Below, one piece after another: positions 27,314 through 59,037 of a stretch of DNA of 64,000 nt. This stretch comes from a phage, in sequence record PX393109.1. One strand, given 5' to 3'. A program made the translations under genes and the position numbers. The notes beneath the pieces were generated by a model, which saw only the letters and a program-made list of their open reading frames with translations, had not been told where the DNA came from and searched no databases. Positions within the stretch are counted from its first letter, which is position 1. Each line of letters begins with the position of its first letter.

Positions 27314-27676
27314 ATGACTTCTGCCGATTGCGTAGCTATGGTCGTCTACTATGAGGCCAGGGGAGAGTCGGAACGTGGGCAGTTAGCTGTAGCCCACGTG
27401 GTACTCAACCGAGCGAAGAAATACGGTATAAGCCCATGTAAGGTAGTTAAAAACAGGAATACCTTTCCGTGGTACCGTCACATCTCTTACCAGAATATGA
27501 AAGATCCTAAATCTAAGGCATCTGCTATTCATATTGCGGCAAGAGTTAAATACAGTGAAGATCCCACATTCGGGGCTACTCACTTTCATAATGTAAAGGT
27601 TAGGCCTAACTGGAAGGGCTATAGAATGACAGCCAGAATAGGCGACCACAAGTTCTATAAGAAGGTAAAGAAATGA
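27314..27676 (+). CDS. SleB/CwlJ-like cell wall hydrolase domain protein
   Basis: VAMVVYYEARGESERGQLAVAHVVLNR matches the Hydrolase_2 N-terminal signature; no signal peptide. Confidence 0.6.
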   Translation: MTSADCVAMVVYYEARGESERGQLAVAHVVLNRAKKYGISPCKVVKNRNTFPWYRHISYQNMKDPKSKASAIHIAARVKYSEDPTFGATHFHNVKVRPNWKGYRMTARIGDHKFYKKVKK

Positions 27677-28521: not shown

Positions 28522-28854
28522 TTAGTGCTTAAAGATGCCGATGATGGCGTCGTTAAACAATCCTACCAGTACACTAATAATTGCTAACGCACCACTCCAG
28601 AATTTAATCTTGTCATTTACTTCCTTAATCTCCTTCCTTAGATCATCCTGCTCATCTTCAAGGTCAGAAATCTTCTTAGACATGAAATTCTGTGCAACGA
28701 CTAGCTCACGGATATCCGCTAATATCTCCGTCTGCTTACGAGAAGACTCCATAAGTTGATCAAGGATTACTCCCTGAAACTTCTGGTTAGATTCAAGTCT
28801 CGCTAGCCTATCGAGTTGGTGTCCACCGAACTCAGACTCTTCCCTCTCGCGCAT
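28522..28854 (-). CDS. coiled-coil protein with C-terminal TM (lysis-associated?)
   Basis: Charged helical region followed by GALAIISVLVGLFNDAIIGIF; last gene of the - strand array. Confidence 0.5.
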   Translation of the reverse strand: MREREESEFGGHQLDRLARLESNQKFQGVILDQLMESSRKQTEILADIRELVVAQNFMSKKISDLEDEQDDLRKEIKEVNDKIKFWSGALAIISVLVGLFNDAIIGIFKH

Positions 28855-28864
28855 ACAAGATTCC

Positions 28865-29074
28865 TCACTTCTGATTGCTCTCTAGGCAATCTATATAAGA
28901 TACCAATTTAGCTAATTCAGCGTTAGGAATCCTGATCCCGTCTTTTTCCGCTATCGCTGCTATCGGTGGACGGTCGCACCTTACCTTCGGCGTCTGCATC
29001 TGTACCGGTAGGCTGTTGCAGCTTACCAAACTTAGACTCCCAAGCACCAGTAGGGTCATTTTTAATTTCTTCAT
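28865..29074 (-). CDS. o-spanin-like outer-membrane lipoprotein
   Basis: Signal plus lipobox LSLVSC; short Pro/Cys-containing mature part; located after the endolysin. Confidence 0.55.
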   Translation of the reverse strand: MKKLKMTLLVLGSLSLVSCNSLPVQMQTPKVRCDRPPIAAIAEKDGIRIPNAELAKLVSYIDCLESNQK

Positions 29075-29153
29075 CTTTCTTCTCCCGAGAGCGAGTCTGC
29101 ATAGCAGATACGAGTAGGGTAATAAGCTGAAGAATAAGAGTAAGAGCTTTCAT
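28923..29153 (-). CDS. possible i-spanin-like ORF overlapping the o-spanin in another frame
   Basis: N-terminal TM ALTLILQLITLLVSAM; atypically short, no clear coiled coil. Confidence 0.25.
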   Translation of the reverse strand: MKALTLILQLITLLVSAMQTRSREKKDEEIKNDPTGAWESKFGKLQQPTGTDADAEGKVRPSTDSSDSGKRRDQDS

Positions 29154-29156
29154 ACC

Positions 29157-29573
29157 TTACTCCTTTTTACCCTCTGGATTTTTGATCAGAGACTTACCGT
29201 AATCAAGGGCATCAATAGCCTGGGTAGCCTTACTCACTAGGTGCGGATCATCCTGAGTTTGGACTACGTCGGAAAGAACCTGCTTAGCTTTATCCATGGT
29301 CTGCACTTTCTGCTCATCCTGAGCGGCAGCTTTCTTATCTACCCTGGCAGCTGATTTAGGCAAGTTCAGAGCGACGAAGTTTAAGATGGACGATGCATAA
29401 CCGAGGTATTTCTTAATTACCCCAATGTATTCGTCGTCTTTAGTATTAGGAGTGATCTTAGCGATCTTCTCCAGAGCTTGCACCAGCACTGATGCGAAGC
29501 CGATGATGGCTAGTGCAAGAGCGATGTAATCATCGATCTTGGATCCATCAAGTACATCCAGGATATTGTCCAT
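29157..29573 (-). CDS. membrane protein, holin or i-spanin candidate
   Basis: TM YIALALAIIGFASVLVQAL followed by a charged helical C-terminal domain; immediately downstream of the endolysin. Confidence 0.5.
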   Translation of the reverse strand: MDNILDVLDGSKIDDYIALALAIIGFASVLVQALEKIAKITPNTKDDEYIGVIKKYLGYASSILNFVALNLPKSAARVDKKAAAQDEQKVQTMDKAKQVLSDVVQTQDDPHLVSKATQAIDALDYGKSLIKNPEGKKE

Positions 29574-29587
29574 TATTGATCACCATA

Positions 29588-30235
29588 TTAAAGAGTTAAA
29601 GTCTGATTTGCTCTGCGTAGTACAGGCAGTCGGTCAGGTACGGTCGCAGCAGACCCATTTATCTTCTGGGTTACTTTGGTGAATGCGTCCTGATCTGCTA
29701 ATTGATTTAATTTATTTTTATCCCAGAACCACCCTGCAGTAAGCATGATCGTTTCGAAATCCGTCTCTACTAACTCTGGATCTTCTACCAAACGGTCATC
29801 GCCAAAGATACTCAAAGAGGCCTCTCGATAGTTAGCTTTGCCAGTTAGATGCATAGCTCCACGGCCAATGTACTTATACCCATCTCCGCTAGCTGGAGTT
29901 CCGTTACCCATGCGATTAGCATACACCTGATTGGCTAACTTCTCAGGGTCGCGTATGTAAGCATTAGCATTAAGCTTACCAGGTTCACCGCGAAGAGTAA
30001 ATCTACTCGGCCACACAGCTACCAGACGAGACGCAGAGGTATAATACAGGGACTCCACAAACTTAGTGTAGTCCCGAGTTTCAAAGGCAGTCTGCGCCAT
30101 AAAATAGCGCAGACGACGATTGGTATTGATACCGTAACGCTCGATAGTAGTATTAATGGCGGGTAGCAGCTTTTCCAGCACTTCCGTTGAAGTTGTCGGG
30201 AGGAACTTCTTCAGCTGGTCAAGTGTAACGCTCAT
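29588..30235 (-). CDS. endolysin, glycoside hydrolase family 19-like
   Basis: YFMAQTAFET...DGYKYIGRGAMHLTGKANY matches GH19 endolysin motifs. Confidence 0.8.
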   Translation of the reverse strand: MSVTLDQLKKFLPTTSTEVLEKLLPAINTTIERYGINTNRRLRYFMAQTAFETRDYTKFVESLYYTSASRLVAVWPSRFTLRGEPGKLNANAYIRDPEKLANQVYANRMGNGTPASGDGYKYIGRGAMHLTGKANYREASLSIFGDDRLVEDPELVETDFETIMLTAGWFWDKNKLNQLADQDAFTKVTQKINGSAATVPDRLPVLRRANQTLTL

Positions 30236-30445: not shown

Positions 30446-33400
30446 TTAACTAAAGTATGCGCGAACGTTCTTAACGAACGGACGGTTAACTGGGTTGGAT
30501 AGAGACAGGGTGATACGGATGCGGGTATTAGCCACATTTACTCCTGACAGTTTGTAAGGTACAGTGTACCACCCATCTCCCAGAGCGGTTCCGGTACTCC
30601 CTGACAAGGCTACCCATTCGCTATCCTTCTGGTACTGAACGGTTACGCTAGCACCAGATGGTACATACTGATCCAGGATGACGTTAAGAGTTACCGGAGT
30701 AATGTTACCGTTAGGGATACTGAACTGACGCTGGGTATATACCCCAGGAGTATCAGTAGTACCAGAACGGAAGATGACGCCACCGAAGACCTTCGGAGAT
30801 ACGGTAGGATCACCGGTATTAAACTCAGCCATCAGACTGAAAGTACCAGAGAAGTTCTCAGTATACGTTTCAGAGTTAACGTTGAGGTTAATGTTATCAG
30901 TACCGTTAGTGAGATAGAATCTCACGGAGGTATTTGCCGGAGTCTCAATATCAGCAGTAAGCGAAAGACTGTTGGTATTGCTAGCTACCGTTACAGAACC
31001 CAAGTTAACAGTGCGAGTAGAACTATAGTCAGCAGCATGGAGACGATACACCAAGTCTTCATCCTGAACTGGAGACCAGGTAGATTCGTTCGCAGAAGTC
31101 AGAAGAACACCCTGAGCTGGCTGATTCACTACATACTGCTGCTTATCGGGATCATATCCGTTTATCTTAGCTGTGGCTACCTTACCCTGATAGTTAGCCG
31201 TAGCAACTATGATGGCATACTCAGTACCACCAGTCACTGTTACTGGATAACGAAGATTGATCTTGTTCCACCCCAGTACACACTTATTAGCCGGAACTTC
31301 ACCGAAGCCATAAAGCTGAGTGGAGTTAGGGATACCTACCAAAGTAGGGACCAGTTTAATCTGGAGTGTGTTAGTAGGCAGCTCAGTCAGATAGATAGAT
31401 ACTGCGTTAATATCACGAGTAGCCTGGATAGTGAAGGTCTGAGCCACTGGATCGTAACCCCACGGAACAGCACCACCAGTCCAGTTCTGACCGTAGTCGA
31501 CTTTACCAGAGTTGTAGATGGTTACGGTACCGCGAGTAATAGCCTTAGTGGTCTTACCAGTAGCAACATACTGATACGTACCGTTAACCAAACCACCAGA
31601 CAGCATATGAGCATACTGTACAGCACCGTTATCATCCGCAGTCAAGGTAACCACTGGCAGGTTACGGAAAGTAAGATCAATCTGTTCGTTGGCAGCATAC
31701 CCAGATAGCTTAATCGTGATCGTAGTATCTACCGGCAGAAAGCCACCATGGAAGTACGACCAGAAGCTACGAGTATCGATCTTAGCTGGTGAAACAGAGA
31801 TCATCGCCTGAGGTACCTGACCAGACCCAGCATACGGGTTGATGCGGGTGTCCTTAGTACGGAATTCCTGAGACTGAATTACGGTATCAGTGAATGATAA
31901 CATAATACCATCAGGAGCCAGACTGGACTGCCGTGAGAAAGATGCTCCGATGAACAGCTGACCATCATCGATAATGGCGTTGTTGGTTAATCCAGCATCA
32001 CGCATGTTACCGTTAAGCAGGGAGTCAACTACTACACCTTTCTTAGTCGTAGTCGGATCGGTAGAGCGAGTTTCATCACGGAGCGAAAGCTGGGCGATGT
32101 TGTACTGCATGTCGCTTACCAGAGACATCAGATCTTTTAGCTCATTATAAGTAACCACTTCGATGCGGTCATTGTTAATGACCGGATCTTGACCCTTAGT
32201 CAGACGAACAGTTGCGATAGACAGCAACGTAGCTGAAGTACCTGGTAACTGAGCGTTTGCCAAGATTGCCGGAATACCCTTAGTGATCTGAACCGCACCA
32301 GAGGCATCGATAGATACACGGTCATAGCGAGACAGGAAGTAAGAGTAGGTTACGTAGAACGTAGACCCAGATACCAGAGCATCACTGGTGGAAATAGTTA
32401 TGGAGGTATCGTTCCAGGTCGGGATGAACTGATCAATGTACTGATACGTAACCTGGTAAGTAGAACCAGGAGATGGTTCGTTACCAGTAGGTGACCAGTC
32501 TACAGAGTCCCCGTTCTGTACATAGTCACTACCTTTAACATAGACAGTACCACCCTGCTGTACAGAAATAATCTGCAGAACAGGAGTATCCGGAAGTAAG
32601 TCAGACGAACCCGTTGCGGAACCATGAGTCACCGTACGAGTCACCTGCTTAGTACCGGATACAGCAGTTACCTGATCAATTACAGAGTAGCGCAGTTGAT
32701 AGGTGTAAGTACCTGCTGTAAACACGTATGGCTCTGAAGCTACGTTACCAGTATCGTTGATAGGGTCCAGACGCACGGTACTTTCATAGGCGAACAGTGC
32801 TTCGTTTCCGAGTACACGAGCCTTGCCCGCAGACATGTTCAACATAATCTGCTGGGTAGAGCCATCGATGCCTGCATAGGACAGAGTTAATCCGTCCAGA
32901 ACATAGTTACCGTGAGTATCAGAATCGTAGCGACCAAGAAGACCAGAGAACTGGTCGAGATCATTACGAGACTTGGTGGTCTTAACCAGTACGCCATTCT
33001 TGAAATAGAATACTGGGAAGAAGGTATCTCCTTCTGGAACATCATCGGCCAACAGCCAAGTAGTTACCTTCTGGAGACGGTCAGCACCAGCTGAACCATA
33101 GCTCGGAGAGTTCTGATACTGCATGAGGAGCTCAGGATCTTCGAGATAGGTGATTACCTTATCAGAGATAGATACACCTAAAACAGCCTCACCAGCAGTA
33201 GGAAACGATGCATCCGTAACAGCAGGTACATTCATAGCCATACCGGCATAGATTAGCGTACCTTCGGTTATAGAGATTACACCGTCTCCAAGAGCGGAAA
33301 TATCCGCCCCATCAGTAATGGCACCATCACCGACCAAGAAGCCGGACAGTGTAGAGACGTTATTGAGCTGCTGATCCTGAATTTCGTTTAGCTCCGAGCT

Positions 33401-33490
33401 CTGGAGCGGCCTGTCCGCGATAAACAGATGCTTGGCGTAGTTCTTCTTAGCCGCAAATCTGTTAAAGTAATCAGACGGTAAAGTTGCCAT
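30446..33490 (-). CDS. large tail fibre / tailspike protein (1014 aa)
   Basis: Ser/Thr/Gly-rich beta-type composition; sits in the receptor-binding-protein locus. Confidence 0.6.
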   Translation of the reverse strand: MATLPSDYFNRFAAKKNYAKHLFIADRPLQSSELNEIQDQQLNNVSTLSGFLVGDGAITDGADISALGDGVISITEGTLIYAGMAMNVPAVTDASFPTAGEAVLGVSISDKVITYLEDPELLMQYQNSPSYGSAGADRLQKVTTWLLADDVPEGDTFFPVFYFKNGVLVKTTKSRNDLDQFSGLLGRYDSDTHGNYVLDGLTLSYAGIDGSTQQIMLNMSAGKARVLGNEALFAYESTVRLDPINDTGNVASEPYVFTAGTYTYQLRYSVIDQVTAVSGTKQVTRTVTHGSATGSSDLLPDTPVLQIISVQQGGTVYVKGSDYVQNGDSVDWSPTGNEPSPGSTYQVTYQYIDQFIPTWNDTSITISTSDALVSGSTFYVTYSYFLSRYDRVSIDASGAVQITKGIPAILANAQLPGTSATLLSIATVRLTKGQDPVINNDRIEVVTYNELKDLMSLVSDMQYNIAQLSLRDETRSTDPTTTKKGVVVDSLLNGNMRDAGLTNNAIIDDGQLFIGASFSRQSSLAPDGIMLSFTDTVIQSQEFRTKDTRINPYAGSGQVPQAMISVSPAKIDTRSFWSYFHGGFLPVDTTITIKLSGYAANEQIDLTFRNLPVVTLTADDNGAVQYAHMLSGGLVNGTYQYVATGKTTKAITRGTVTIYNSGKVDYGQNWTGGAVPWGYDPVAQTFTIQATRDINAVSIYLTELPTNTLQIKLVPTLVGIPNSTQLYGFGEVPANKCVLGWNKINLRYPVTVTGGTEYAIIVATANYQGKVATAKINGYDPDKQQYVVNQPAQGVLLTSANESTWSPVQDEDLVYRLHAADYSSTRTVNLGSVTVASNTNSLSLTADIETPANTSVRFYLTNGTDNINLNVNSETYTENFSGTFSLMAEFNTGDPTVSPKVFGGVIFRSGTTDTPGVYTQRQFSIPNGNITPVTLNVILDQYVPSGASVTVQYQKDSEWVALSGSTGTALGDGWYTVPYKLSGVNVANTRIRITLSLSNPVNRPFVKNVRAYFS

Positions 33491-49634: not shown

Positions 49635-50294
49635 CTACTGTTTAGAGTTAGGCGGAGATGTACTACCACCACTATCGCCAACATGATCGTGACCGTTGTA
49701 GATAGCGCGATCTTCCGACATCTTGCGAACCTTGTCCTTGATCTCTCCTGTTCCATCGACAAGAGGAGTATCCAGTTTGATATGCTCTTTGGCGATTATC
49801 TCCAGAGCTTTAGCGATATCGACCTTACCTCCTCCTGGGGTGGTAAGAGTAAAATTAGCTTCTTGGTCAATATCGAACTGAAATCCAGAACAGTGCTTAA
49901 AATGAACTTCCTTAGACACTTTATCTATATAGAATACAGTGCCGGTAGAATCCTTAAATCCATACCTGTTGGGATAATTCTCTTTAAACTCTTCCGGTAC
50001 TTCCTTAGAGTGCCATCTACCAGTGTAGAATGGGAAATGCTGATCTCCTGTGGGGAACGAGACAGATACCTCAGTACCTACTTCTGGTATTTCAACACGG
50101 TCAGATTCCCCATCCCCCAGGAATGCAGATGCAATAGGAATGGCCCATGGGATACCATCACCATCGAGTACCCCAGGAACCCTAACCTTTACTCTGCATT
50201 TTTGGGCAGGGTCGTTATTATCAACGACTACCCCCTTATGGATGGCCTTCAGAGGATCCTGACCATTGCGCATGAGGTCTATAATATTTATCAT
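49635..50294 (-). CDS. baseplate spike / assembly protein V-like
   Basis: GVVVDNNDPAQKCRVKVRVPGVLDGDGIPWAIP resembles the gpV OB-fold N-terminus. Confidence 0.6.
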   Translation of the reverse strand: MINIIDLMRNGQDPLKAIHKGVVVDNNDPAQKCRVKVRVPGVLDGDGIPWAIPIASAFLGDGESDRVEIPEVGTEVSVSFPTGDQHFPFYTGRWHSKEVPEEFKENYPNRYGFKDSTGTVFYIDKVSKEVHFKHCSGFQFDIDQEANFTLTTPGGGKVDIAKALEIIAKEHIKLDTPLVDGTGEIKDKVRKMSEDRAIYNGHDHVGDSGGSTSPPNSKQ

Positions 50295-50296
50295 AC

Positions 50297-51421
50297 TTAA
50301 ACCTCTCTGGAATTATTCATCCCATCTCTGCACAACGTAAGGACGGTACATAAGTCTTTATTAGTGAAGATCCTACACACCTTCTGGGTTAGCCAAAGAC
50401 CGGACGAATCCATATTGGCTTCCTTACGACGAGCATCAGAGTCTTCTTTAAGTAACACAGAATCGAGAACTCGGATATTGAAATAATACCCAGTAATCTC
50501 GACCTTGGCTTTCATCATGGATAATCGGAGGAGGTTTCGGATGTTGTAATCGAAGGACGAATGGTAGGAAGAATGTACATTCTCATTAAGGATGGATACT
50601 CCTCCCAGACGCCGTCCCGTATCCGAGACTTCCTGATTACTCGATACTGATAGGATAGGGGATCCCTGAGGAGTGGAGTAGAACGACTGATTGTCGCTCT
50701 GATTGTGAACAATCCTGGATTTGGCATAGCCACCAAGAGCATTTACTGCTCCTGAATCGCTATAGATGTTAGGTGGCTTATCGTAATAAATAGCACCAGC
50801 ATCTTTGGTCTCTAGGGAAGTTAACTTCCAGTTAGGATTATTCCTGTCCACTGCTGTAGAGATAGACCGGACCCTAAACAAACCATCAGTAGTAATACCT
50901 ACCAATGGAGTATCGGAGTTTAAATTACTGTGAAGCCATAACTGGTTAACGAAATCTCGATCGTTAATGTTATTCTGCAGCCAGTTCATCTTGTTATCAG
51001 ATGCTGGGCAGTTGAAGTCTGCCTTAAAATACTTAGAGACTATAGACTTCATCACCTCTATTGAGGTACCAGTATGACTTGCTGCCTGGGAATCTATTCT
51101 GTACGGAACAGCTCCGAAGACTCCCAGTACTCTGAGGATTTGAGACCCTACTCCGAAATTAGTTTTCTGACGTTTTAGGATGGCTAACTTAACGTTAATC
51201 ATGCTAGCTTCGTTACGACCGAAACTGGCATAAATGAAATTACCTTCCTTGAGTACTGAGACTATTTGCTCATCTCGGCACTCGAAAACTAGCTCATAAG
51301 TAGGCATAACGTTACCAGCCTCTTCGATGATCTTAAACTGGATAAGATCTCTAGGGCCGATGAAGTCTTTAAAGTCGCCAATCTTAAACATGGCAACATA
51401 TTGACCTTTTACACCTATCAT
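50297..51421 (-). CDS. baseplate hub-like protein
   Basis: Position between tape measure and the V-like gene. Confidence 0.4.
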   Translation of the reverse strand: MIGVKGQYVAMFKIGDFKDFIGPRDLIQFKIIEEAGNVMPTYELVFECRDEQIVSVLKEGNFIYASFGRNEASMINVKLAILKRQKTNFGVGSQILRVLGVFGAVPYRIDSQAASHTGTSIEVMKSIVSKYFKADFNCPASDNKMNWLQNNINDRDFVNQLWLHSNLNSDTPLVGITTDGLFRVRSISTAVDRNNPNWKLTSLETKDAGAIYYDKPPNIYSDSGAVNALGGYAKSRIVHNQSDNQSFYSTPQGSPILSVSSNQEVSDTGRRLGGVSILNENVHSSYHSSFDYNIRNLLRLSMMKAKVEITGYYFNIRVLDSVLLKEDSDARRKEANMDSSGLWLTQKVCRIFTNKDLCTVLTLCRDGMNNSREV

Positions 51422-51795
51422 GATAAGCTCTCCACTTTAGCAGTAGCGGAGACAGATGACACATCTGGAGTCAGCGAGAAGTAAATATCTTCCAGATCGT
51501 CAATCAGTGGATATCTCAGAACTAAGTTCATGGTTAAGTCCCATGGGAACCGCAACTCATTCACCATCATAAGAATCCACCAGTACTGAGTCAATCCAGC
51601 ACCATAGATTCGTTCTGAGAGTAGGTCGGGTCTACCCACTTCTGAGATCACTGTATATGTACCATACCGAGAAAGATTCTTCAGTTTGTACATAAATTCA
51701 GAATCAACAGAGTCCAAGATAGACCCATTCTCATTAGACATGAATTTAGAGATATCATACCTCTGAGCCAATTTGTCTGAGTCTATCTTGAACAT
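51418..51795 (-). CDS. tail protein, unknown role
   Basis: ORF in the tail module. Confidence 0.45.
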   Translation of the reverse strand: MFKIDSDKLAQRYDISKFMSNENGSILDSVDSEFMYKLKNLSRYGTYTVISEVGRPDLLSERIYGAGLTQYWWILMMVNELRFPWDLTMNLVLRYPLIDDLEDIYFSLTPDVSSVSATAKVESLS

Positions 51796-51802
51796 AAGTC
51801 AC

Positions 51803-52438
51803 CTATTTAATAAACCAGGATCTTACATGATCCTCATCCGGCAGATATGCTGGGGTGAAGGACAGTTGCACCTTAGCCCATAACGGCTGACCAGTAGAGC
51901 GAGCTATTTCCTTGCTGTACTGAGTCGACACGTTCACAAGTATAAGGCTAGTTGCCCTGAACCACTGGCCGATCTGCAGAGTCCATGTACCTGTTATAGC
52001 GGTATCCGGATTGAAATTACCAGTCGCCTTGGTTACAGAGTACCCATTAGGAGCTCCGAACATAAGTCCGTTCTTGGTAGTGTATGTTACCCCAGCCAGG
52101 AACTCTTTAACTATGTCCAAAGGTCTGATGGATGGATTGTATGAGATAATTGTCAGAGGCACTGGAAATACTGGTTTGGTACTTCCTCGCCACTGAGCGA
52201 TAGTTTCACGAATATTTCGTATAACCATCTGATCCATACCCACGGTATTAGCTACCGCGTTAGCACCTCGCGTTAAGGTACCAGCCATCAAGTTTTCACC
52301 AGATTCAAACAGAGACGAAATATCGAATCCGAAATCCGTCTCTATAAGACCTACAGTACGGGACTTGTTACCAGGATGGACTAAGACAATTCTAGCATCT
52401 GGATTCGCGTATAGCTTCTCGATGTCTAATACTGCCAT
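51803..52438 (-). CDS. tail protein, unknown role
   Basis: ORF immediately downstream of the tape measure gene. Confidence 0.45.
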   Translation of the reverse strand: MAVLDIEKLYANPDARIVLVHPGNKSRTVGLIETDFGFDISSLFESGENLMAGTLTRGANAVANTVGMDQMVIRNIRETIAQWRGSTKPVFPVPLTIISYNPSIRPLDIVKEFLAGVTYTTKNGLMFGAPNGYSVTKATGNFNPDTAITGTWTLQIGQWFRATSLILVNVSTQYSKEIARSTGQPLWAKVQLSFTPAYLPDEDHVRSWFIK

Positions 52439-55296
52439 TATGAGAACACCATCTTGTTGAAGAACGCCAGACCATAGTCATCAATAGTGTCACTCTTATC
52501 CGTAACCACTGAAGGTACGTTAGGAGTTATAGCAGCAGGATCCTGGTTCCTGGTGGAACCAGCAGCCATAGCGGCCAATTGATTATTCTGATCTTGACGT
52601 TGTTTATTAACATCGTCTGTAGGGGTAGGAGCCTTAGGGACCTCGAGAGGTACGTTCTGAGCAACCTGGGTAGCTCCTGACTTAGATGCCTCAGCATCAG
52701 AACCATTCTTCATCCATTCTGCAGTATATGCAGCACGGTCTGCTAACCCATTATACCCACCATTGACCGCCTTAGTTGCTACTTCAACAGTAGCTCCTTT
52801 CTTCTCCATCTGTGGTCGCACACGATCTTTCCAATATGCAACCGCTAACTTATTGGCGATTTCAGGATCTTCAGCCATCTCAGGATTATTTTCGAGATCT
52901 ATACCCAGCATCTTACCATACTTCTGGTAATTAGCCCTACCAGTAAGCTGTATCCAGCCACGACCCTTATAACGAACCCCGTCCCCAGGATTTACGTTAC
53001 CCAGGTCTTTACGACCCTCGTACGCTTTACCAGAGGCTAGTTCTTTATTATAACGGAAGTTACCAGACTCATGCTGAACCTGGCCCATGAATAGAGCCAG
53101 TTCTTTATCGTCGATTCCCTGCTGCTTAGCATACTCTGCCAGACTATTCTTACGCTCCGTCTGCTCCTTAGAGCTGGGGAGGTATCGAGAGGCATTCTGC
53201 ATAGCGGACTGTAGGATACTACCACCGGCATCAACAGCACTGTCATAACCATTGGATATTATTCCACCAACAGTTCTTGCGCCATTAACTATGGAGGCAC
53301 CTGCTCCGATAATCCCATTGGATACCGCAACAGCTCCTTTCTTAAGTCCTTTAAAGAAGTCACCGACTACCGGTAGGTCTGATAGCCAATCAAATAGGCC
53401 ACCAATACCTTCACCTATAGACTTCATAGGATCATTTATAAATTCTGTAACCAAGTTAGATAATTCACTGATTTCTCCGGTTATGGACTTGGTTACCGAG
53501 TCGTAACTATCGGAGAACCACTTAGAGGTATCGGAGACGGACTTGGAAAGCCAGTCGGATGCATTCTTATACATCCCTGAGAATGACGCCGTTAGGTTAT
53601 TTGCAATATTAACCGCACCTTCGTATGTCTTCTGTACAGTATCTACAGCAGACTTAGCGACATTCACTACATCCTCTGGAGAGGCTAACCCGAAAGTTAA
53701 CCCAGAGGCTAGTGAGGCTGCCGATGAGCCAGCCTTAGCCCAGTTATCATCGCTGCCGAATAGCTCCTTAGCCTTATCTCCATCCCATCCAGAGACAGCA
53801 TCGTAAACTCCCATACCAGCAGTTACGGCTAACCCAATTCCTGGAATGAACTTAGCTCCTCTAAGGCCAGCTCTCAGAAGCGCACCACCTCCACGAGCAG
53901 CGCCTCTCGCAAGTCCTCCGGTGGCAGCTGCGTCGACTGCTCTGCCTGCCATCCTGCCAAGTCTACCGAACCTGCTGAGTCCACGACCGAGACGAGTCCT
54001 GCCTCTTCTTCCCCTACTTCTTCTACCTCTGCGGCCACGCTCATCGCCACCGCCGATAAGATCATCAAAGATAGAATCAGCAGCACCCTGCTTCTGTTCG
54101 TTAGCGAAAGGATCAATTTCTTCATGGTTAGCTCTTCCATTAGCTCTGGTTACCGATACCAGTTGCTCATCGATATCCACCAAAGTAGACTGACCATTAA
54201 TTAACTGAGTCTGCTTACGGGACAGTTCGTCCTGGCCAGACCTAGTCTCATTAATTAACTCTCGAATGCTGTTGTTAATCTCGTCCAGCTTCTGATTCTG
54301 CTCCTCTTCTGGAGTAGGTCCGAAACTGGGTTTTGGATTTACGGTAGCATCTGGAGTAGTAATCTCGACCTTAGTCTCTTTACCGTCGACTTTAGCAGAG
54401 GCCTCAGTGGAAGATTCTCCATCGGGTTTATTTTCTGATTTAAGAATCTCTCGAGATATGGCCTTTAATTCTTCGTCAGTAGTATCCGGTTCGTCTTTCC
54501 TTTTACGGAACATGGATGATATTGCACCATCCAATTTATCAGATATACCGAATACACTATCCAGGTCCCCTAAACCTAAGGCACCTAGACCAGATGAGAG
54601 TGCTTCCTTGCGGACAGAACCTACGGAAAACTGCGATGGGGTATTAAGGAACGAATCCCTTAAATTACGGCCAGTTTGACGTATGTTAAATCTGTCAAGA
54701 GTATCCCTCTCATCCTTACTCCTGTTCGTTAAGTTAGCAACCTTTACCGTATCAGAATATTTAATCTTTACGTTCTGATTGGCTAACTCAGCTCTAGCTT
54801 GCTCAATGATGCGGTTATTCTTCCGCATATTGATAGTACTAAGTGAGGAATTGGATACGTTAAGTACTCGAAGTAACCCACTCAGTTCTCTCATAGCAGT
54901 CATACGGACGCCACGAGTAAGTCTAGAGTCATTTAATATTGACTGATAGGTGTCGAGTAAAGATTCTGCAGCGATGGCCTTTTGATCCTCGGCAGTAGCG
55001 TACATATCCGCAACCTGGCCTACTTTATCTCTTAAGGAGATCAGCTGCTCAGCTTCCTGGGTAGAGAACTTAGCCCTACCGTAAAACTTACCCATCAGTG
55101 TATTCAGGGTCTTAACTTCATCAGAGCTAAGACCGACATCTACATCGTTGCTGGAGAGTATCTTAACAGTAGAACGAATCCCGATAAGATCTTCTTCCAG
55201 TTTAGACCTGGCATGCTCGTAATCAGAGGCATCCTTAATCGGATCGGTAGCTTCTGTACGAGCAATCCCAGATATGCCTCTAACTATGCTAACCAT
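52438..55296 (-). CDS. tail tape measure protein with C-terminal GH19 lysozyme-like domain
   Basis: 952 aa; helical N-terminus; Arg/Gly-rich low-complexity block; C-terminal FMGQVQHESGNF...YKGRGWIQLTGRANY homologous to the endolysin GH19 core. Confidence 0.7.
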   Translation of the reverse strand: MVSIVRGISGIARTEATDPIKDASDYEHARSKLEEDLIGIRSTVKILSSNDVDVGLSSDEVKTLNTLMGKFYGRAKFSTQEAEQLISLRDKVGQVADMYATAEDQKAIAAESLLDTYQSILNDSRLTRGVRMTAMRELSGLLRVLNVSNSSLSTINMRKNNRIIEQARAELANQNVKIKYSDTVKVANLTNRSKDERDTLDRFNIRQTGRNLRDSFLNTPSQFSVGSVRKEALSSGLGALGLGDLDSVFGISDKLDGAISSMFRKRKDEPDTTDEELKAISREILKSENKPDGESSTEASAKVDGKETKVEITTPDATVNPKPSFGPTPEEEQNQKLDEINNSIRELINETRSGQDELSRKQTQLINGQSTLVDIDEQLVSVTRANGRANHEEIDPFANEQKQGAADSIFDDLIGGGDERGRRGRRSRGRRGRTRLGRGLSRFGRLGRMAGRAVDAAATGGLARGAARGGGALLRAGLRGAKFIPGIGLAVTAGMGVYDAVSGWDGDKAKELFGSDDNWAKAGSSAASLASGLTFGLASPEDVVNVAKSAVDTVQKTYEGAVNIANNLTASFSGMYKNASDWLSKSVSDTSKWFSDSYDSVTKSITGEISELSNLVTEFINDPMKSIGEGIGGLFDWLSDLPVVGDFFKGLKKGAVAVSNGIIGAGASIVNGARTVGGIISNGYDSAVDAGGSILQSAMQNASRYLPSSKEQTERKNSLAEYAKQQGIDDKELALFMGQVQHESGNFRYNKELASGKAYEGRKDLGNVNPGDGVRYKGRGWIQLTGRANYQKYGKMLGIDLENNPEMAEDPEIANKLAVAYWKDRVRPQMEKKGATVEVATKAVNGGYNGLADRAAYTAEWMKNGSDAEASKSGATQVAQNVPLEVPKAPTPTDDVNKQRQDQNNQLAAMAAGSTRNQDPAAITPNVPSVVTDKSDTIDDYGLAFFNKMVFS

Positions 55297-55374: not shown

Positions 55375-56205
55375 TCAACCATGTTTCTTCTTGCCAAAAG
55401 AGATGAGATGTTTAATAGAGACTTCATCTCTACGAAACGGTTCCGCCAGTTGGCTTACCCCCTTGACCGTTACTTCGGCCTTATGTCCACACTTAGGGCA
55501 AGCACATTCAATATACTGGCGACCAAAGTCAAGAATCTCGTCGATCATCTGAAGAGCCTGAATTATATCAGAGTCTTTATTCTCGAGGATAATCTTCTTG
55601 GCTTCTTCGTAGGTCTTATTACGGACCATCTTAGGCAACTCTACTTCCGCAGAGCGCTCGGGAGAGATACGACGGCACACCATCATATCATCAACCGTAA
55701 ACGGAGTGAATTCCAGAGTATCCCCATTAGGAAGATCGAGGATAATAGGCAATTCTTCTATTTCGGTTAAGTCCTGGAAGATAATCTCGCTTAAGCTACG
55801 GCTAGAGGAGATATATTCCTGGCAACCTGGGCATGTGTAGGAAAGACGCCACTCGTTCTTAGAGAACGTGGTTAACTTACGGAGTACCATAATAAGGAGG
55901 AGATCTTCGAATACGATCTGTCCCTTAGTTATACCGCGAGTTTCGATGTTGGCGAAGGTCAGTTCGATCTTCTGCTCAAGAGTCATCTTACCGTGGGACC
56001 ATCTTTCTACTTCGCCGAAGCTGTAGGGCTTATACGAAATAGTGGTACCAGCAGGGTAAGCTAAGAACCGAGACGGAAGCTGTTCCGCGGTAATCAGAAT
56101 ACCAGTAGAGTCTGACGTAGCCGGATCGACTACGGGAGTCGCAGCAACGACTTCCTCGGAAGCCTTCTGGGACGCTAATTCTTCACGAGATACAGTTTCC
56201 ATCAT
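55375..56205 (-). CDS. tail-associated protein with Cys4 zinc-ribbon motifs
   Basis: CPGCQEY...CACPKCGHK; lies between tube and tape measure. Confidence 0.45.
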   Translation of the reverse strand: MMETVSREELASQKASEEVVAATPVVDPATSDSTGILITAEQLPSRFLAYPAGTTISYKPYSFGEVERWSHGKMTLEQKIELTFANIETRGITKGQIVFEDLLLIMVLRKLTTFSKNEWRLSYTCPGCQEYISSSRSLSEIIFQDLTEIEELPIILDLPNGDTLEFTPFTVDDMMVCRRISPERSAEVELPKMVRNKTYEEAKKIILENKDSDIIQALQMIDEILDFGRQYIECACPKCGHKAEVTVKGVSQLAEPFRRDEVSIKHLISFGKKKHG

Positions 56206-56702: not shown

Positions 56703-57227
56703 TTAAAGAGCTCCTTCCTTGAAGTCGTCGTAGGACAACGTCAGGACTGGTTTCAGTACGTCAGCCGAAGTAGAGCCCAGCTGGCCACCAGCATCATAAT
56801 CTTCCAGGAATACACCTTCGAGATCATAATACCAGATACCGACTTTCTGACGATTCAGGCGTTTAAGACGCAGTTTCGCCTTAACATCCTGAGTACGGCC
56901 AGCAACACCAGTACCAGTCTGGTAGCACATTTCACGCCAGTTAGCAATCTGCTGAGCGATTGCGTTATCCACAGTTTCGTTACAGGTTAGTGTAAGAGTC
57001 TGAGGAGGAGCGTAAATCCCAGGCTGTTTAACCGGCACCAGACCACGAATCTGGATAGATGTGGAAGTACCAGTCTTTTTCGGAATATCCGAAGATTCGC
57101 AACGCAGGAAGACTGCATCCGACAGATTATTCAGGCCGGAAGGTACAGTGATGAACTGTAATTCCCAGTCGACGATCGTGGCGAAGTCTCCCAGATTGCG
57201 GACTTGATCCAAAGTAATAGGCGGCAT
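56703..57227 (-). CDS. tail tube protein
   Basis: Immediately downstream of the sheath; start trimmed to MPPITLDQ. Confidence 0.55.
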   Translation of the reverse strand: MPPITLDQVRNLGDFATIVDWELQFITVPSGLNNLSDAVFLRCESSDIPKKTGTSTSIQIRGLVPVKQPGIYAPPQTLTLTCNETVDNAIAQQIANWREMCYQTGTGVAGRTQDVKAKLRLKRLNRQKVGIWYYDLEGVFLEDYDAGGQLGSTSADVLKPVLTLSYDDFKEGAL

Positions 57228-57237
57228 CCTGATCTCC

Positions 57238-59037
57238 TTACAGTGCTTCCGCGGCCAGATCGAAGTCCACACTGTTATTGGTAATACCAATAGTCAGAGG
57301 GATGTATTCGGTCGAGTTATTCGGGCAAACCAGCAGGCTTACTCGCAGGATATGGTTATCCACATCGCTTGCAGTGTTGTTGGTATCATCACAGATAGTG
57401 ACGTACTTAGTAACACCGCGACGAGCCATGATCGAATCCATATAGGTATCGACCATACCTTTAGCCAGTGCACGAGTATCCGCATCGTTGAATTCGAACA
57501 GGAAGTTCGCCAACAGTTTACGGATAGCCGGACCGATGGTAACCAGCAGGAGTCGGACGTTCAGGCGATCCAGCATGGAGCTAGCGTACTGAAGAGTCTT
57601 CTGACCCCAGATCTTGATACCTTCGCCTTCTTCGAATACGATAGGGTTAATACCCGCATCATACAGAAGATCCTGGTCAGAGTCGAGCAGGTGTACGTAC
57701 GTATCCAGCACGTTAACCACACCACGCTTGTTACCACCCACTGGGTACCAGATCTCGAAGTTAGACGCAGTATCGAAGATAGCCTTCGTCGCAACGCCGT
57801 CCGGAGATACCCACAGATTACGGTCGTTGTAACGATCGTAGATCTTAACGTGAGGTGCATACATGGCAGCATAACTGGTATCCCAGTTAGTGTCGTGCTT
57901 ACGATAGTTAACCATAGACTGGGCAGGAGATACGCCACCCTGTGCAGTCAGAGGAACCGAGGTAATACCGACGCAGTCAGCACGGGACTCTGCCAGTGCG
58001 ATGATCGCTGAACCGTATGCCTGAGAAGTACGACCACCGTTCATGATCACTTTAATAGCGAATTCACGAGGGTTGTTGAGCTTATTCAGAGCACGAATAC
58101 AGTCTCCATCGGTAACCGGAGATCCGTTAGAACCACCACCCAATGCTGCTGGGATAACGATGTCAGCCACCGGATCAGTGTTCAGAGGGTTATTAAACAC
58201 CTGAGCATAGATATTGTCGGCAGTAACATCTTCGATGTACAGAGACTTATTGTCCTGATCCTTAAGACCATTGATCTTAGAACCGATTACGTCCAGCACC
58301 GGATTAACCAGATCGTCCGCTTTAAATACCCGCAGATTGAAGGTATTGGGGATCTTGGTGTACTCCACAGCCGGAGATACGATAACTCCGGTAGCATCGG
58401 ACACGGTCAATGTAACAGGAGTAGATGCGGTAGCATTAGCTCGGCTGGTTGCCAGCTTAATACCACCAGTAGCAGGTACTGCGAAGTAAGTGGTGTAATC
58501 ATTAACTTCAGCAGGCAAGTTAGAGCCAGCCAGTTTAACCGGATAACCAGCACCCCATTTCTGGGTAGACTTAAGAATACCACCAGTTACGGCGACAGTC
58601 TCAGTAGCTTTATAGCCGAGTACCTGGAAGCGGAGTTCATCACCCCAAAGACCCTGGTTAGCTGCTGCGATCAGGAAGGACTCGTCGTCCATATCCACTG
58701 CAGACGGATCTTTAATATCACTGGCAGTAACGACGGTACCGTCTTTATTTACCAGAGCGCCTGAATAGCGAGCATCAGCAGAAGCAGCACGAACTACCAC
58801 CACGCTGGAGTATTTCTCCAACACGGTTAGCGCAGAGAAGTGCGCAGTAGACATACCGATGTCGATTTGCTCATTTGGCGTAAAGATTTTCAGGAAGTTG
58901 GGAGCATTGCCAGGCACGATCGGTTTCTCTACCGGACCTTTAACAGCATCAACTACGATAGCCGCATAAATAGTCTCAGTGGCAGGAACGTACGCACTCA
59001 GATCGCGCTCCGCATAGCTTACGCGTGGTGCAGACAT
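57238..59037 (-). CDS. contractile tail sheath protein
   Basis: 599 aa with sheath-like signatures (GINPIVFEEGEGIKIWGQKTL) and gene order. Confidence 0.8.
   Translation of the reverse strand: MSAPRVSYAERDLSAYVPATETIYAAIVVDAVKGPVEKPIVPGNAPNFLKIFTPNEQIDIGMSTAHFSALTVLEKYSSVVVVRAASADARYSGALVNKDGTVVTASDIKDPSAVDMDDESFLIAAANQGLWGDELRFQVLGYKATETVAVTGGILKSTQKWGAGYPVKLAGSNLPAEVNDYTTYFAVPATGGIKLATSRANATASTPVTLTVSDATGVIVSPAVEYTKIPNTFNLRVFKADDLVNPVLDVIGSKINGLKDQDNKSLYIEDVTADNIYAQVFNNPLNTDPVADIVIPAALGGGSNGSPVTDGDCIRALNKLNNPREFAIKVIMNGGRTSQAYGSAIIALAESRADCVGITSVPLTAQGGVSPAQSMVNYRKHDTNWDTSYAAMYAPHVKIYDRYNDRNLWVSPDGVATKAIFDTASNFEIWYPVGGNKRGVVNVLDTYVHLLDSDQDLLYDAGINPIVFEEGEGIKIWGQKTLQYASSMLDRLNVRLLLVTIGPAIRKLLANFLFEFNDADTRALAKGMVDTYMDSIMARRGVTKYVTICDDTNNTASDVDNHILRVSLLVCPNNSTEYIPLTIGITNNSVDFDLAAEAL

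What the first reader, a model, noticed from the sequence alone, without database searches (positions are those of the whole stretch)
52438..55296. Tape measure protein with Arg/Gly-rich low-complexity block and GH19 domain
The middle of the protein contains a run (GRRGRRSRGRRGRTRLGRGLSRFGRLGR...) unusual for tape measure proteins. It is followed by a hydrophobic Gly/Ala segment and a C-terminal GH19-type muramidase domain, suggesting a tape measure that also acts as the wall-penetrating lysin.
Basis: partly seen in the sequence, partly recalled or inferred. Interest (0 to 1): 0.4.

Follow-up and report, generated by a model that had tools for sequence, protein, structure and literature searches.

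The report
Tail tape measure carrying a lysozyme
This is the long protein inside the tail of an E. coli myovirus, carrying a built-in cell-wall-cutting enzyme and a positively charged stretch; this is a known kind of phage entry protein, and the charged stretch proves typical of its family.

Summary
Window 52438-55296 (minus strand) is one 952-aa ORF. It has an Arg/Gly block (aa 416-482, 19 Arg, net +17), then Gly/Ala-rich weakly hydrophobic segments, then a GH19 domain (aa 716-865). An 87-aa tail follows the domain.

The window is about 98% identical to Escherichia phage vB_EcoM_IME392, where the gene is annotated only as "putative glycoside hydrolase".

The gene sits between the sheath/tube genes and the baseplate/spike genes. 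No other long candidate lies there. Its middle part hits 11 tape-measure PHROGs and matches the annotated tape measure of Bacillus phage AR9.

All GH19 catalytic and core residues are present and conserved. A separate GH19 endolysin sits in a lysis cassette 22 kb away, so this copy is best read as an entry enzyme carried in the virion.

The Arg/Gly block is not an oddity. A basic, Gly-rich tract precedes a conserved 74-aa motif (KFIPGxGL…SGLTFGL) in 67 distant homologues. These carry at least nine interchangeable wall-hydrolase domain types. Only the Arg density is extreme here.

Verdict: a new member of a known kind (tape measure with embedded lysin). Interest is low to moderate.

The parts
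52438..55296 (-). Whole gene, 952 aa: tail tape-measure-like protein with an embedded GH19 lysin
   Evidence: ORF. It is 99% identical to IME392 AXY86112 'putative glycoside hydrolase'.
54442..55296 (-). aa 1-285: N-terminal helical region. It is shared with a subset of homologues (P0006, P0008, P0010 and others).
   Evidence: Hits over aa 17-275 and my phmmer run. A low-confidence AF2 model gives 76% helix.
54313..54441 (-). aa 286-328: variable acidic/polar linker with insertions and deletions among relatives
   Evidence: Alignment A1. No predicted secondary structure.
54133..54312 (-). aa 329-388: one long predicted helix
   Evidence: low-confidence model.
53851..54051 (-). aa 416-482: Arg/Gly-rich basic tract. 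It has an RGR/RRG polycationic run (aa 420-433), a cationic amphipathic stretch (aa 435-452) and an Ala/Gly/Arg stretch (aa 453-482).
   Evidence: Composition and net charge +17. It holds the highest helical hydrophobic moment of the protein, 0.81 against a mean of 0.28 (sd 0.145), with Arg spaced 3-4-3-3-4. Composition is conserved, with indels, in 5 relatives. A basic tract is a family-wide trait.
53653..53874 (-). aa 475-548: conserved 74-aa motif [KR]-F-I-P-G-x-G-L-x2-T-A-G-M-x2-Y-D … S-G-L-T-F-G-L. It includes the most hydrophobic segment (aa 483-501). No Pfam family covers it.
   Evidence: Most of the 85 hits in 1.84 billion representatives cover only this region. Alignment A6. phrog_26249 (AR9/PBS1 tape measure).
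53152..53652 (-). aa 549-715: helical region with a second Gly/Ala-rich hydrophobic, small-xxx-small zipper segment (aa 655-690)
   Evidence: The fragment aa 481-715, scanned alone, hits 11 PHROG families named 'tail length tape measure protein'; the best is phrog_1535 at E 6e-6. Zipper motifs and hydropathy.
52702..53151 (-). aa 716-865: GH19 (endolysin-type) muramidase domain. Catalytic codons: E743 at 53068-53070, E752 at 53041-53043, T785 at 52942-52944.
   Evidence: Residue mapping to the GH19 Engineering Database core. The AF2 domain model has pLDDT 64, and its top 47 Foldseek PDB hits are all GH19.
52438..52701 (-). aa 866-952 plus stop: low-complexity linker and conserved C-terminal motif DTIDDYGLAFFNKMVFS. 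This is the likely anchor to the baseplate hub.
   Evidence: The last ~20 residues are invariant in relatives. The same D-x-I-D-D-x-G-L-x2-F-x-K-x-V ending is in Acinetobacter phage Ab1-TPeters.
57238..59037 (-). Tail sheath gene (upstream context)
   Evidence: Pfam Phage_sheath_1; phrog_23 at E 2e-62.
56703..57290 (-). Tail tube gene (upstream context)
   Evidence: phrog_4542 tail tube at E 2.5e-5. The syntenic gene is annotated tail tube in Ab1-TPeters.
55375..56205 (-). 276-aa zinc-ribbon protein like T4 gp26/gp51 (baseplate hub), immediately upstream. It is paired with the motif-bearing protein even in distant phages.
   Evidence: Pfam T4_baseplate at 23.5 bits, just below the gathering score of 24.5. 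phrog_150 baseplate hub at E 3.8e-6. Adjacency in L007, L016 and L033.
49635..52438 (-). Downstream baseplate genes: 211 aa (PmgG-like), 125 aa, 374 aa and a 219-aa gpV-type spike that has no lysozyme domain
   Evidence: Same order in Ab1-TPeters and six IMG/VR loci.
29588..30235 (-). Separate 215-aa GH19 endolysin at the head of a lysis cassette, followed by a holin candidate and spanin-like genes (28522-29573)
   Evidence: Pfam GH19 at 33.8 bits. Annotated endolysin in EP_H11. Only 33% identical over 106 aa to the tape-measure GH19 domain.

Best explanation
The gene encodes the tail-lumen tape-measure protein of an IME392-like E. coli myovirus. The protein also delivers a peptidoglycan hydrolase into the host.

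Inferred sequence of events:
1. During assembly, the conserved C-terminal end docks in the baseplate hub. The mostly helical body fills the tube lumen.
2. On sheath contraction, the gpV-type spike breaches the outer membrane. This spike has no lysozyme domain of its own.
3. The protein is expelled C-terminus first.
4. The GH19 domain cuts the MurNAc-GlcNAc bonds of the murein locally.
5. The conserved Gly-rich hydrophobic motif and the cationic, partly amphipathic Arg/Gly tract just before it then engage the anionic inner membrane. This helps open the path for the DNA.

Shown by computation: the domain content, the intact catalytic residues, the gene position, and the conservation of each module. 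Inferred: presence in the virion, length measuring, order of exit, and the membrane role of the Arg/Gly tract.
For: **Position and synteny.**
- Gene order is sheath, tube, 158 aa, hub-like 276 aa, this gene, then baseplate genes and the spike.
- The same order is found in Acinetobacter phage Ab1-TPeters and in six IMG/VR loci.
- The gene's stop overlaps the start of the next baseplate gene.
- No other long ORF lies in that stretch.

**Tape-measure likeness.**
- aa 481-715, scanned alone, hits 11 tape-measure PHROGs, best E 6e-6.
- aa 450-543 is 50% identical to the 1924-aa AR9/PBS1 protein, which is annotated 'tail tape measure protein' in AR9.
- One homologue carries Tape_meas_lam_C.
- The model predicts about 71% helix over aa 1-715.

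**Lysin.**
- GH19 scores above the Pfam gathering score.
- The core residues H742, E743, S744, E752, Y759, GRG778-780, Q783, T785 and N789 match the endolysin core of the GH19 Engineering Database (PMC8547705).
- They are invariant in close relatives and conserved in the distant GH19-bearing homologues P0006, P0008, P0012 and P0019, with one H742-to-Q change in P0018.
- A related GH19 enzyme is a proven muramidase that loses activity on E60Q (PMC12329726).

**Entry role rather than lysis role.**
- A separate GH19 endolysin with a holin candidate and spanin-like genes lies at 28.5-30.2 kb. It is only 33% identical to this domain.
- No internal ribosome-binding site would allow a free GH19 product.

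**Modularity.** At the same place, homologues carry VgrG3-like_C (12), GH19 (8), VanY (5), Phage_lysozyme (2), Phage_lysozyme2 (2), Glucosaminidase, NlpC/P60, SLT or Amidase_2.

**Arg/Gly tract.** A basic Gly-rich tract is conserved upstream of the motif in 67 homologues. The tract holds the strongest amphipathic signal of the protein.
Against: - There is no significant full-length match to any curated tape-measure family in Pfam or NCBIfam. The PHROG tape-measure hits come from a Gly/Ala/Ser-rich fragment and could be partly compositional.
- There is no detectable similarity to T4 gp29.
- Homologues in otherwise syntenic tail modules vary from 697 to about 1070 aa. That fits a ruler only if tail lengths differ, which is unknown.
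- The hydrophobic segments fall below the usual transmembrane threshold.
- The amphipathic signal is only modestly above shuffles (P about 0.02 for aa 431-448).
- The full-length structure model is unreliable, with pLDDT 38.5.
- No virion proteomics or tail measurements for IME392 or EP_H11 were found.
Confidence: 0.72

Rival explanations
1. It is a hub or needle-associated structural lysin that does not set tail length. This is how phiKZ gp181 has been described, as part of the cell-puncturing device. Tail length would then be set by something else.
For: No curated tape-measure family matches the full protein. Length varies from 697 to about 1070 aa among phages with very similar sheath and tube genes. 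Reviews place phiKZ gp181 in a needle-like puncturing device (PMC5380687). The adjacent conserved partner is a T4 gp26/gp51-like hub protein.
Against: No other long helical ORF lies in the tail module to act as a ruler. Tape-measure PHROGs hit aa 481-715. The AR9 homologue is annotated as the tape measure. The length variation lies mostly in the N-terminal helical part, where a ruler would vary (motif start at aa 258 in Ab1-TPeters against 482 here).
Confidence: 0.15
2. The Arg/Gly tract works inside the virion rather than at the membrane. It would stick the protein electrostatically to the acidic inner wall of the tail tube, or it would hold the end of the DNA as an RGG-type nucleic-acid-binding stretch.
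For: The first half (RGRRGRRSRGRRGR, aa 420-433) is not amphipathic (moment 0.23-0.40) and looks like an RGG/RG box. Tail-tube lumens are known to be electronegative (my own knowledge of T4, R-pyocin and T5 tube structures). A contact between tape measure and DNA has been seen in the 80alpha neck (bioRxiv 10.1101/2024.12.10.627806, listed).
Against: The tract always sits directly before the hydrophobic motif, at mid-protein (median relative position 0.46), not at the N-terminal, head-proximal end. In most homologues it is a Lys/Gly/Leu amphipathic repeat resembling antimicrobial peptides, such as GKFLGKGLG.
Confidence: 0.3
3. It is simply the phage's endolysin, or a soluble glycoside hydrolase, as the database records annotate it.
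For: GenBank names are 'putative glycoside hydrolase' (IME392), 'membrane-bound lytic murein transglycosylase D precursor' (EP_H11) and 'endolysin' (Ab1-TPeters). Most viral GH19 genes lie beside lysis cassettes (bioRxiv 10.1101/2024.12.20.629349).
Against: It is 952 aa long, and only 150 aa are the enzyme. It is embedded in the tail module and translationally coupled to a baseplate gene. A canonical 215-aa GH19 endolysin with a holin candidate and spanin-like genes exists elsewhere in the window.
Confidence: 0.03

Closest known systems
Phage T5 Pb2 (tape measure with fusogenic and muralytic activities; Boulanger et al. 2008, cited in PMC6116005)
   Same: It is a long helical tail-lumen protein with hydrophobic segments and a wall-degrading domain near the C-terminal end. 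It is expelled at infection to cross the envelope.
   Different: T5 is a siphovirus. Its enzyme is a peptidase-type domain, not GH19. No sequence similarity was detected here.
Bacillus jumbo phage AR9/PBS1 1924-aa tape measure (phrog_26249)
   Same: It shares the conserved KFIPGxGL…SGLTFGL motif (50% identity over query aa 450-543). It has a Gly-rich tract before the motif and a wall-hydrolase domain after it. The host phage is a myovirus.
   Different: It is twice as long. Its lysin is VgrG3-like (phrog_34863 / PF21277), not GH19. The upstream tract is barely charged (net +2). The rest of the protein is unrelated.
Pseudomonas phage phiKZ gp181 (structural peptidoglycan hydrolase; Briers et al. 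2008, cited in PMC5380687)
   Same: It is a very long tail-associated protein of a myovirus with a C-terminal glycosidase domain used at entry.
   Different: The enzyme is a lysozyme or lytic transglycosylase type. It is described as part of the puncturing device. It was not compared by sequence here.
Mycobacteriophage TM4 and Staphylococcus phage phiIPLA35 tape measures with lysin motifs (cited in PMC6116005)
   Same: Each has a wall-hydrolase motif embedded in a tape measure. In TM4 it improves infection of stationary-phase cells.
   Different: Both are siphoviruses of Gram-positive or mycolate hosts, and the enzyme families differ.
GH19 phage endolysins (SPN1S 4ok7, PWe2 9ms7, PaGH19Lys, D29 LysA GH19 domain)
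   Same: Same fold and same catalytic Glu-x8-Glu…Thr set.
   Different: Those are free 180-220-aa lysis enzymes or modules of endolysins. This one is a domain inside a 952-aa tail protein.
T4 gp29 (baseplate hub subunit and tail length determinator)
   Same: Same functional slot: it lies next to gp26/gp51-like hub genes, in a contractile tail.
   Different: No significant sequence similarity (pairwise E 0.017 on a compositional stretch). gp29 has no lysin; in T4 the lysozyme is on gp5.

Membership tests
Glycoside hydrolase family 19, endolysin subfamily (Pfam PF00182) | Profile match above the curated threshold | tested here: met
   37.2 bits against a gathering score of 25.5, aa 730-826. PDB GH19 endolysins match down to E 4e-21.
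Glycoside hydrolase family 19, endolysin subfamily (Pfam PF00182) | Catalytic acid Glu, catalytic base Glu nine positions later, and a water-coordinating Thr, plus the conserved core (H, S, Y, GRG, Q, N) | tested here: met
   H742, E743, S744, E752, Y759, G778-R-G780, Q783, T785 and N789 match SPN1S positions 48, 49, 50, 58, 106, 123-125, 128 and 130; N789 matches the conserved Asn that follows in the same table (PMC8547705). They are invariant in 6 close sequences and conserved in the distant tape-measure GH19 homologues, apart from H742-to-Q in P0018.
Glycoside hydrolase family 19, endolysin subfamily (Pfam PF00182) | GH19 alpha-helical two-lobe fold | tested here: met
   The AF2 domain model has pLDDT 64 and pTM 0.66. 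The top 47 Foldseek PDB hits are all GH19, with TM 0.5-0.6. Model quality is only moderate.
Glycoside hydrolase family 19, endolysin subfamily (Pfam PF00182) | Muramidase activity on peptidoglycan | not testable with these tools
   This needs an enzyme assay.
Tail tape measure protein | Gene lies between the tail tube (and assembly) genes and the baseplate hub/spike genes, and is the longest ORF there | tested here: met
   Synteny in Ab1-TPeters and six IMG/VR loci.
Tail tape measure protein | Sequence membership in a described tape-measure family | tested here: inconclusive
   No Pfam or NCBIfam tape-measure hit. The fragment aa 481-715 hits 11 PHROG tape-measure families at E from 6e-6 to 0.04. 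A motif is shared with the annotated AR9 tape measure.
Tail tape measure protein | Long, predominantly alpha-helical body | tested here: met
   About 71% helix over aa 1-715 in the AF2 model, but the model's confidence is low (pLDDT 38.5).
Tail tape measure protein | Protein length sets tail length | not testable with these tools
   No tail measurements were found for IME392 or EP_H11. This needs deletion mutants and electron microscopy.
Virion-associated lysin | Wall-hydrolase domain inside a structural tail protein, with a separate endolysin for lysis | tested here: met
   The GH19 domain is inside the tail-module ORF. A separate GH19 endolysin and lysis cassette lie at 28522-30235.
Virion-associated lysin | Physical presence in the virion and lytic activity from outside | not testable with these tools
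   This needs virion proteomics and a zymogram.
T4 gp29 family | Detectable sequence similarity to T4 gp29 | tested here: not met
   The best BLASTP pairwise E is 0.017, on a compositional stretch that is not the motif.

The most novel reading that the evidence does not exclude
The basic Gly-rich tract plus the 74-aa KFIPGxGL…SGLTFGL motif could be an undescribed, widely shared envelope-crossing module of tail-lumen proteins in contractile-tail phages. No Pfam family covers it.

It occurs in IME392-like phages, T4-like contigs and AR9/PBS1 jumbo phages. It sits upstream of interchangeable wall-hydrolase domains and is often paired with a gp26/gp51-like zinc-ribbon hub protein.

If it is the element that inserts into the inner membrane, it would give a testable handle on how myoviruses pass DNA across that membrane.
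Probability: 0.3. Interest if true: 0.55.

Novelty: new member of a known kind. Interest (0 to 1): 0.3.

Why it matters
**Annotation.** Three public records name this gene 'glycoside hydrolase', 'MltD precursor' or 'endolysin'. All three miss its likely role as the tape measure and entry lysin of a poorly studied group of roughly 110-116 kb myoviruses of Escherichia and Acinetobacter.

**Engineering.** The GH19 domain is a natural 'from outside' lysin for a Gram-negative host. It lies in the same protein as a cationic amphipathic tract, a combination that enzybiotic engineers build artificially.

**Biology.** The swapping of at least nine hydrolase types behind one conserved motif shows how freely phages exchange entry enzymes. 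It also points to a conserved, uncharacterised motif worth testing for membrane insertion.

Tried and rejected
- **Full-length AF2 model.** From a 5-sequence alignment it reached only pLDDT 38.5. I used it for secondary structure only and did not fold-search it.
- **Curated tape-measure families.** NCBIfam gave nothing for the protein. PHROG scans of the N-terminal 420 aa and the C-terminal 87 aa gave nothing significant.
- **T4 comparisons.** T4 gp29 showed no similarity. Pairwise BLAST of the 276-aa neighbour against T4 gp51 and gp26 was uninformative.
- **DNA-level origin of the block.** Tandem Repeats Finder found no DNA repeat under the Arg/Gly block, so repeat slippage is not an evident origin. 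The block is purine-rich, using AGA/AGG codons.
- **Separate GH19 product.** I looked for an internal start with a Shine-Dalgarno site that would yield a free GH19 protein. None was found.
- **Cultured-phage relatives.** tblastn of aa 1-700 against 50,697 phage records found only IME392, EP_H11 and Ab1-TPeters. The word-indexed 5.8-billion-protein search found only 5 proteins.
- **Related loci.** The search for related loci failed with the 28-sequence motif alignment and worked with a 5-sequence one.
- **Literature.** Paper searches for IME392 and EP_H11 gave no virion morphology or proteomics. Searches pairing tape measure with GH19 found no description of this architecture.
- **Antisense ORF.** The ORF at 53846-54193 (+) is a Pro/Leu-rich shadow of the Arg/Gly block and was rejected as a gene.


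Full report
**1. What is in the sequence.**

Window 52438-55296 on the minus strand is one uninterrupted ORF of 952 codons, starting MVSIVRGISG. The quoted run is at aa 421-448.

The basic tract spans aa 416-482.
- It holds 19 Arg, 19 Gly and 11 Ala in 67 residues, with net charge +17.
- The other 885 residues are net acidic.
- Against the Arg frequency of the rest of the protein (4.7%), 19 Arg in 67 residues has a binomial probability of 1.9e-10 per window.
- There is no DNA tandem repeat beneath it.

The block has two halves.
- A polycationic RGR/RRG run at aa 420-433 is not amphipathic.
- A stretch at aa 435-452 (RLGRGLSRFGRLGRMAGR) has Arg spaced 3-4-3-3-4. It carries the highest helical hydrophobic moment in the protein: 0.81, against a protein mean of 0.28 with sd 0.145. 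A shuffle test on aa 431-448 gives P about 0.02.

The 'hydrophobic Gly/Ala segment' exists but is mild. The maximum 19-residue hydropathy is 1.41 at aa 483-501 and 1.31 at aa 655-673, below the usual 1.6 cut-off. Several small-xxx-small zipper patterns are present.

The GH19 domain is real.
- Pfam PF00182 scores 37.2 bits against a gathering score of 25.5.
- PHROG endolysin families reach E 3.5e-39.
- Solved GH19 endolysins reach E 4e-21.

The domain spans about aa 716-865. An 87-residue tail follows it.

**2. Where the window comes from.**

The gene is 98.2% identical in DNA to Escherichia phage vB_EcoM_IME392 (116 kb) and 91.7% identical to Escherichia phage EP_H11 (111 kb). Those records call it 'putative glycoside hydrolase' and 'membrane-bound lytic murein transglycosylase D precursor'.

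The family is rare.
- A word-indexed search of 5.8 billion proteins found only four close relatives (72-99% identity) and one distant one.
- tblastn of aa 1-700 against 50,697 phage genomes found only IME392, EP_H11 and Acinetobacter phage Ab1-TPeters.

**3. Is it the tape measure?**

Gene order on the minus strand is:
- sheath (57238-59037)
- tube (56703-57290)
- a 158-aa ORF
- a 276-aa zinc-ribbon protein resembling T4 baseplate hub proteins gp26/gp51
- this gene
- a 211-aa PmgG-like protein, then 125-aa and 374-aa proteins
- a gpV-type spike with an OB domain but no lysozyme

The gene's stop overlaps the next gene's start. No other long ORF lies in this stretch.

The same order is found in Ab1-TPeters, where the homologue is 697 aa and labelled 'endolysin'. 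It is also found in six IMG/VR loci. Sheath similarity there reaches E 4e-180, while only the middle of the tape-measure-like protein remains recognisable.

Several further results point the same way.
- The fragment aa 481-715, scanned alone, hits 11 PHROG families named 'tail length tape measure protein' (best E 6e-6).
- aa 450-543 is 50% identical to part of a 1924-aa protein. That protein is the AR9/PBS1 jumbo-phage protein, annotated 'tail tape measure protein' in AR9.
- One distant homologue carries the lambda tape-measure C-terminal domain.
- A low-confidence AF2 model (pLDDT 38.5) predicts about 71% helix over aa 1-715.

Against this reading:
- Pfam and NCBIfam have no tape-measure hit.
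- T4 gp29 shows no similarity.
- Lengths in syntenic modules range from 697 to about 1070 aa.

I conclude it is the tape-measure equivalent. This rests on position, partial homology and the lack of any alternative. Length measuring itself is untested.

**4. Is the GH19 domain competent, and what is it for?**

The GH19 Engineering Database defines the endolysin core in SPN1S numbering: H48, E49 (proton donor), S50, E58 (base), Y106, G123-R-G125, Q128 and T130 (water coordination), with a conserved Asn a few positions later (PMC8547705).

The protein has H742, E743, S744, E752, Y759, G778-R-G780, Q783, T785 and N789, with the same 9-residue Glu-Glu spacing.
- All are invariant in the six close sequences.
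- They are conserved in the distant GH19-bearing homologues P0006, P0008, P0012 and P0019. P0018 differs only at H742, which is Gln.

A related GH19 enzyme, PaGH19Lys, is an experimentally shown muramidase that loses activity on E60Q (PMC12329726). An AF2 model of aa 701-870 (pLDDT 64) retrieves only GH19 structures as its top 47 Foldseek hits.

The phage does not need this domain for lysis. A 215-aa GH19 endolysin lies at 29588-30235. It is followed by a membrane protein (holin candidate), a lipobox protein with an overlapping partner (spanin-like), and a further membrane protein. EP_H11 annotates that gene as endolysin. It is only 33% identical over 106 aa to the tape-measure domain, so the two copies are old and separate.

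No internal ribosome-binding site precedes the domain. The spike lacks a lysozyme domain. The domain is therefore best read as the virion-borne entry lysin.

**5. The Arg/Gly block in context.**

An exhaustive HMMER search with aa 1-700 against 1.84 billion cluster representatives gave 85 hits. Most cover only aa 440-560. Aligned, they define a 74-residue motif: [KR]-F-I-P-G-x-G-L-x2-T-A-G-M-x2-Y-D … S-G-L-T-F-G-L. No Pfam family covers it.

In 67 homologues with at least 60 residues upstream of the motif:
- The upstream window has a median net charge of +9, against a protein-wide mean of +1.4.
- It has a median of 12 Gly and 1 acidic residue.
- In 60% of proteins it lies in the top tenth of that protein's own most positive windows.
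- Most use Lys. Examples are GKFLGKGLG-type repeats resembling antimicrobial peptides, or KKRKKKRGKKGK. Only 15 of the 67 use more Arg than Lys.

The window protein has the densest Arg run of all, 14 in 30 residues. In the five close relatives the block keeps its composition (13-17 Arg in the 60 residues before the motif) while its length and sequence drift.

So the block is a conserved compositional feature of this family, not an oddity of this gene.

**6. Interchangeable lysins.**

Pfam scans of the 84 distant representatives found these domains, downstream of the motif wherever positions were reported:

| Domain | Proteins |
|---|---|
| VgrG3-like_C | 12 |
| GH19 | 8 |
| VanY | 5 |
| Phage_lysozyme | 2 |
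| Phage_lysozyme2 | 2 |
| Glucosaminidase | 1 |
| NlpC/P60 | 1 |
| SLT | 1 |
| Amidase_2 | 1 |

In the closest syntenic IMG/VR module (L009), the GH19 domain is replaced by VgrG3-like_C at the equivalent place. Ab1-TPeters has yet another, phrog_873-type domain. The family-wide plan is: helical body, basic tract, motif, hydrolase, C-terminal anchor.

The pairing with a gp26/gp51-like zinc-ribbon gene persists even in T4-like contigs (L007, L016, L033).

**7. Mechanism and rivals.**

The best-supported reading is a tail-lumen tape measure that is expelled after contraction.
- The GH19 domain opens the murein locally.
- The Gly-rich motif with its cationic, partly amphipathic lead-in engages the anionic inner membrane.

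This parallels phage T5 Pb2 and other tape measures with lysin motifs (PMC6116005) and phiKZ gp181 (PMC5380687).

The membrane role of the Arg/Gly tract is inference only. It could instead bind the acidic tube lumen or the DNA end. A hub-lysin that does not measure length remains possible, at about 0.15. The 'plain endolysin' reading is effectively excluded.

**8. Novelty and score.**

A tape measure with an embedded lysin is a known kind. The GH19 version in an E. coli myovirus is a new, misannotated member. I found no paper describing it.

The conserved motif with its basic lead-in and swappable hydrolases is the more interesting by-product. It rests on computation alone. Interest is 0.3.

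Noticed in passing
window 28522-30235 (-): A complete-looking lysis cassette. It holds a 215-aa GH19 endolysin (29588-30235), a 138-aa membrane protein as holin candidate (29157-29573), overlapping 76-aa and lipobox 69-aa ORFs that look like i-/o-spanins (28865-29153), and a 110-aa coiled-coil protein with a C-terminal hydrophobic end (28522-28854).
   Followed up: partly
window 27314-27676 (+): A 120-aa SleB/CwlJ-type cell wall hydrolase (Pfam Hydrolase_2, E 2.5e-20). It is the third wall hydrolase in this window, it lies on the opposite strand, and its role is unknown.
   Followed up: no
window 30446-33490 (-): A 1014-aa protein whose first 570 residues match DUF4815 (E 7e-131). It lies at the end of the tail-fibre module, just before the lysis cassette.
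   Followed up: no
L009:8729-11929, L006:7224-9317, L036:8963-11422: In tail modules syntenic or related to this one, the hydrolase domain at the same position differs. It is VgrG3-like_C (a type VI secretion effector domain) in L009, a phrog_873-type domain in Acinetobacter phage Ab1-TPeters, and VanY in L036. This is domain swapping between phage tail-lumen proteins and T6SS spike effectors.
   Followed up: partly
window 55375-56205 (-); L007:9078-9914, L016:6632-7483, L033:2745-3539: A zinc-ribbon protein like T4 gp26/gp51 sits next to the motif-bearing protein in IME392-like phages and also in T4-like contigs. This suggests a conserved assembly partnership.
   Followed up: partly
whole phage lineage (IME392 / EP_H11): IME392 is listed among phages whose DNA polymerase resembles that of YerA41, in a study of thymidine-hypermodified genomes (PMC12686479). 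EP_H11 appears in a preprint on phage A-family polymerases fused to uracil-DNA glycosylase (10.1101/2025.03.26.645540). The genome may carry modified bases.
   Followed up: no
window 53846-54193 (+): A 115-aa Pro/Leu/Ala-rich ORF lies antisense to the Arg/Gly block. It is a shadow of the low-complexity coding sequence, not a gene.
   Followed up: yes
window 1-64000: ARAGORN found no tRNA genes in the 64-kb window.
   Followed up: yes
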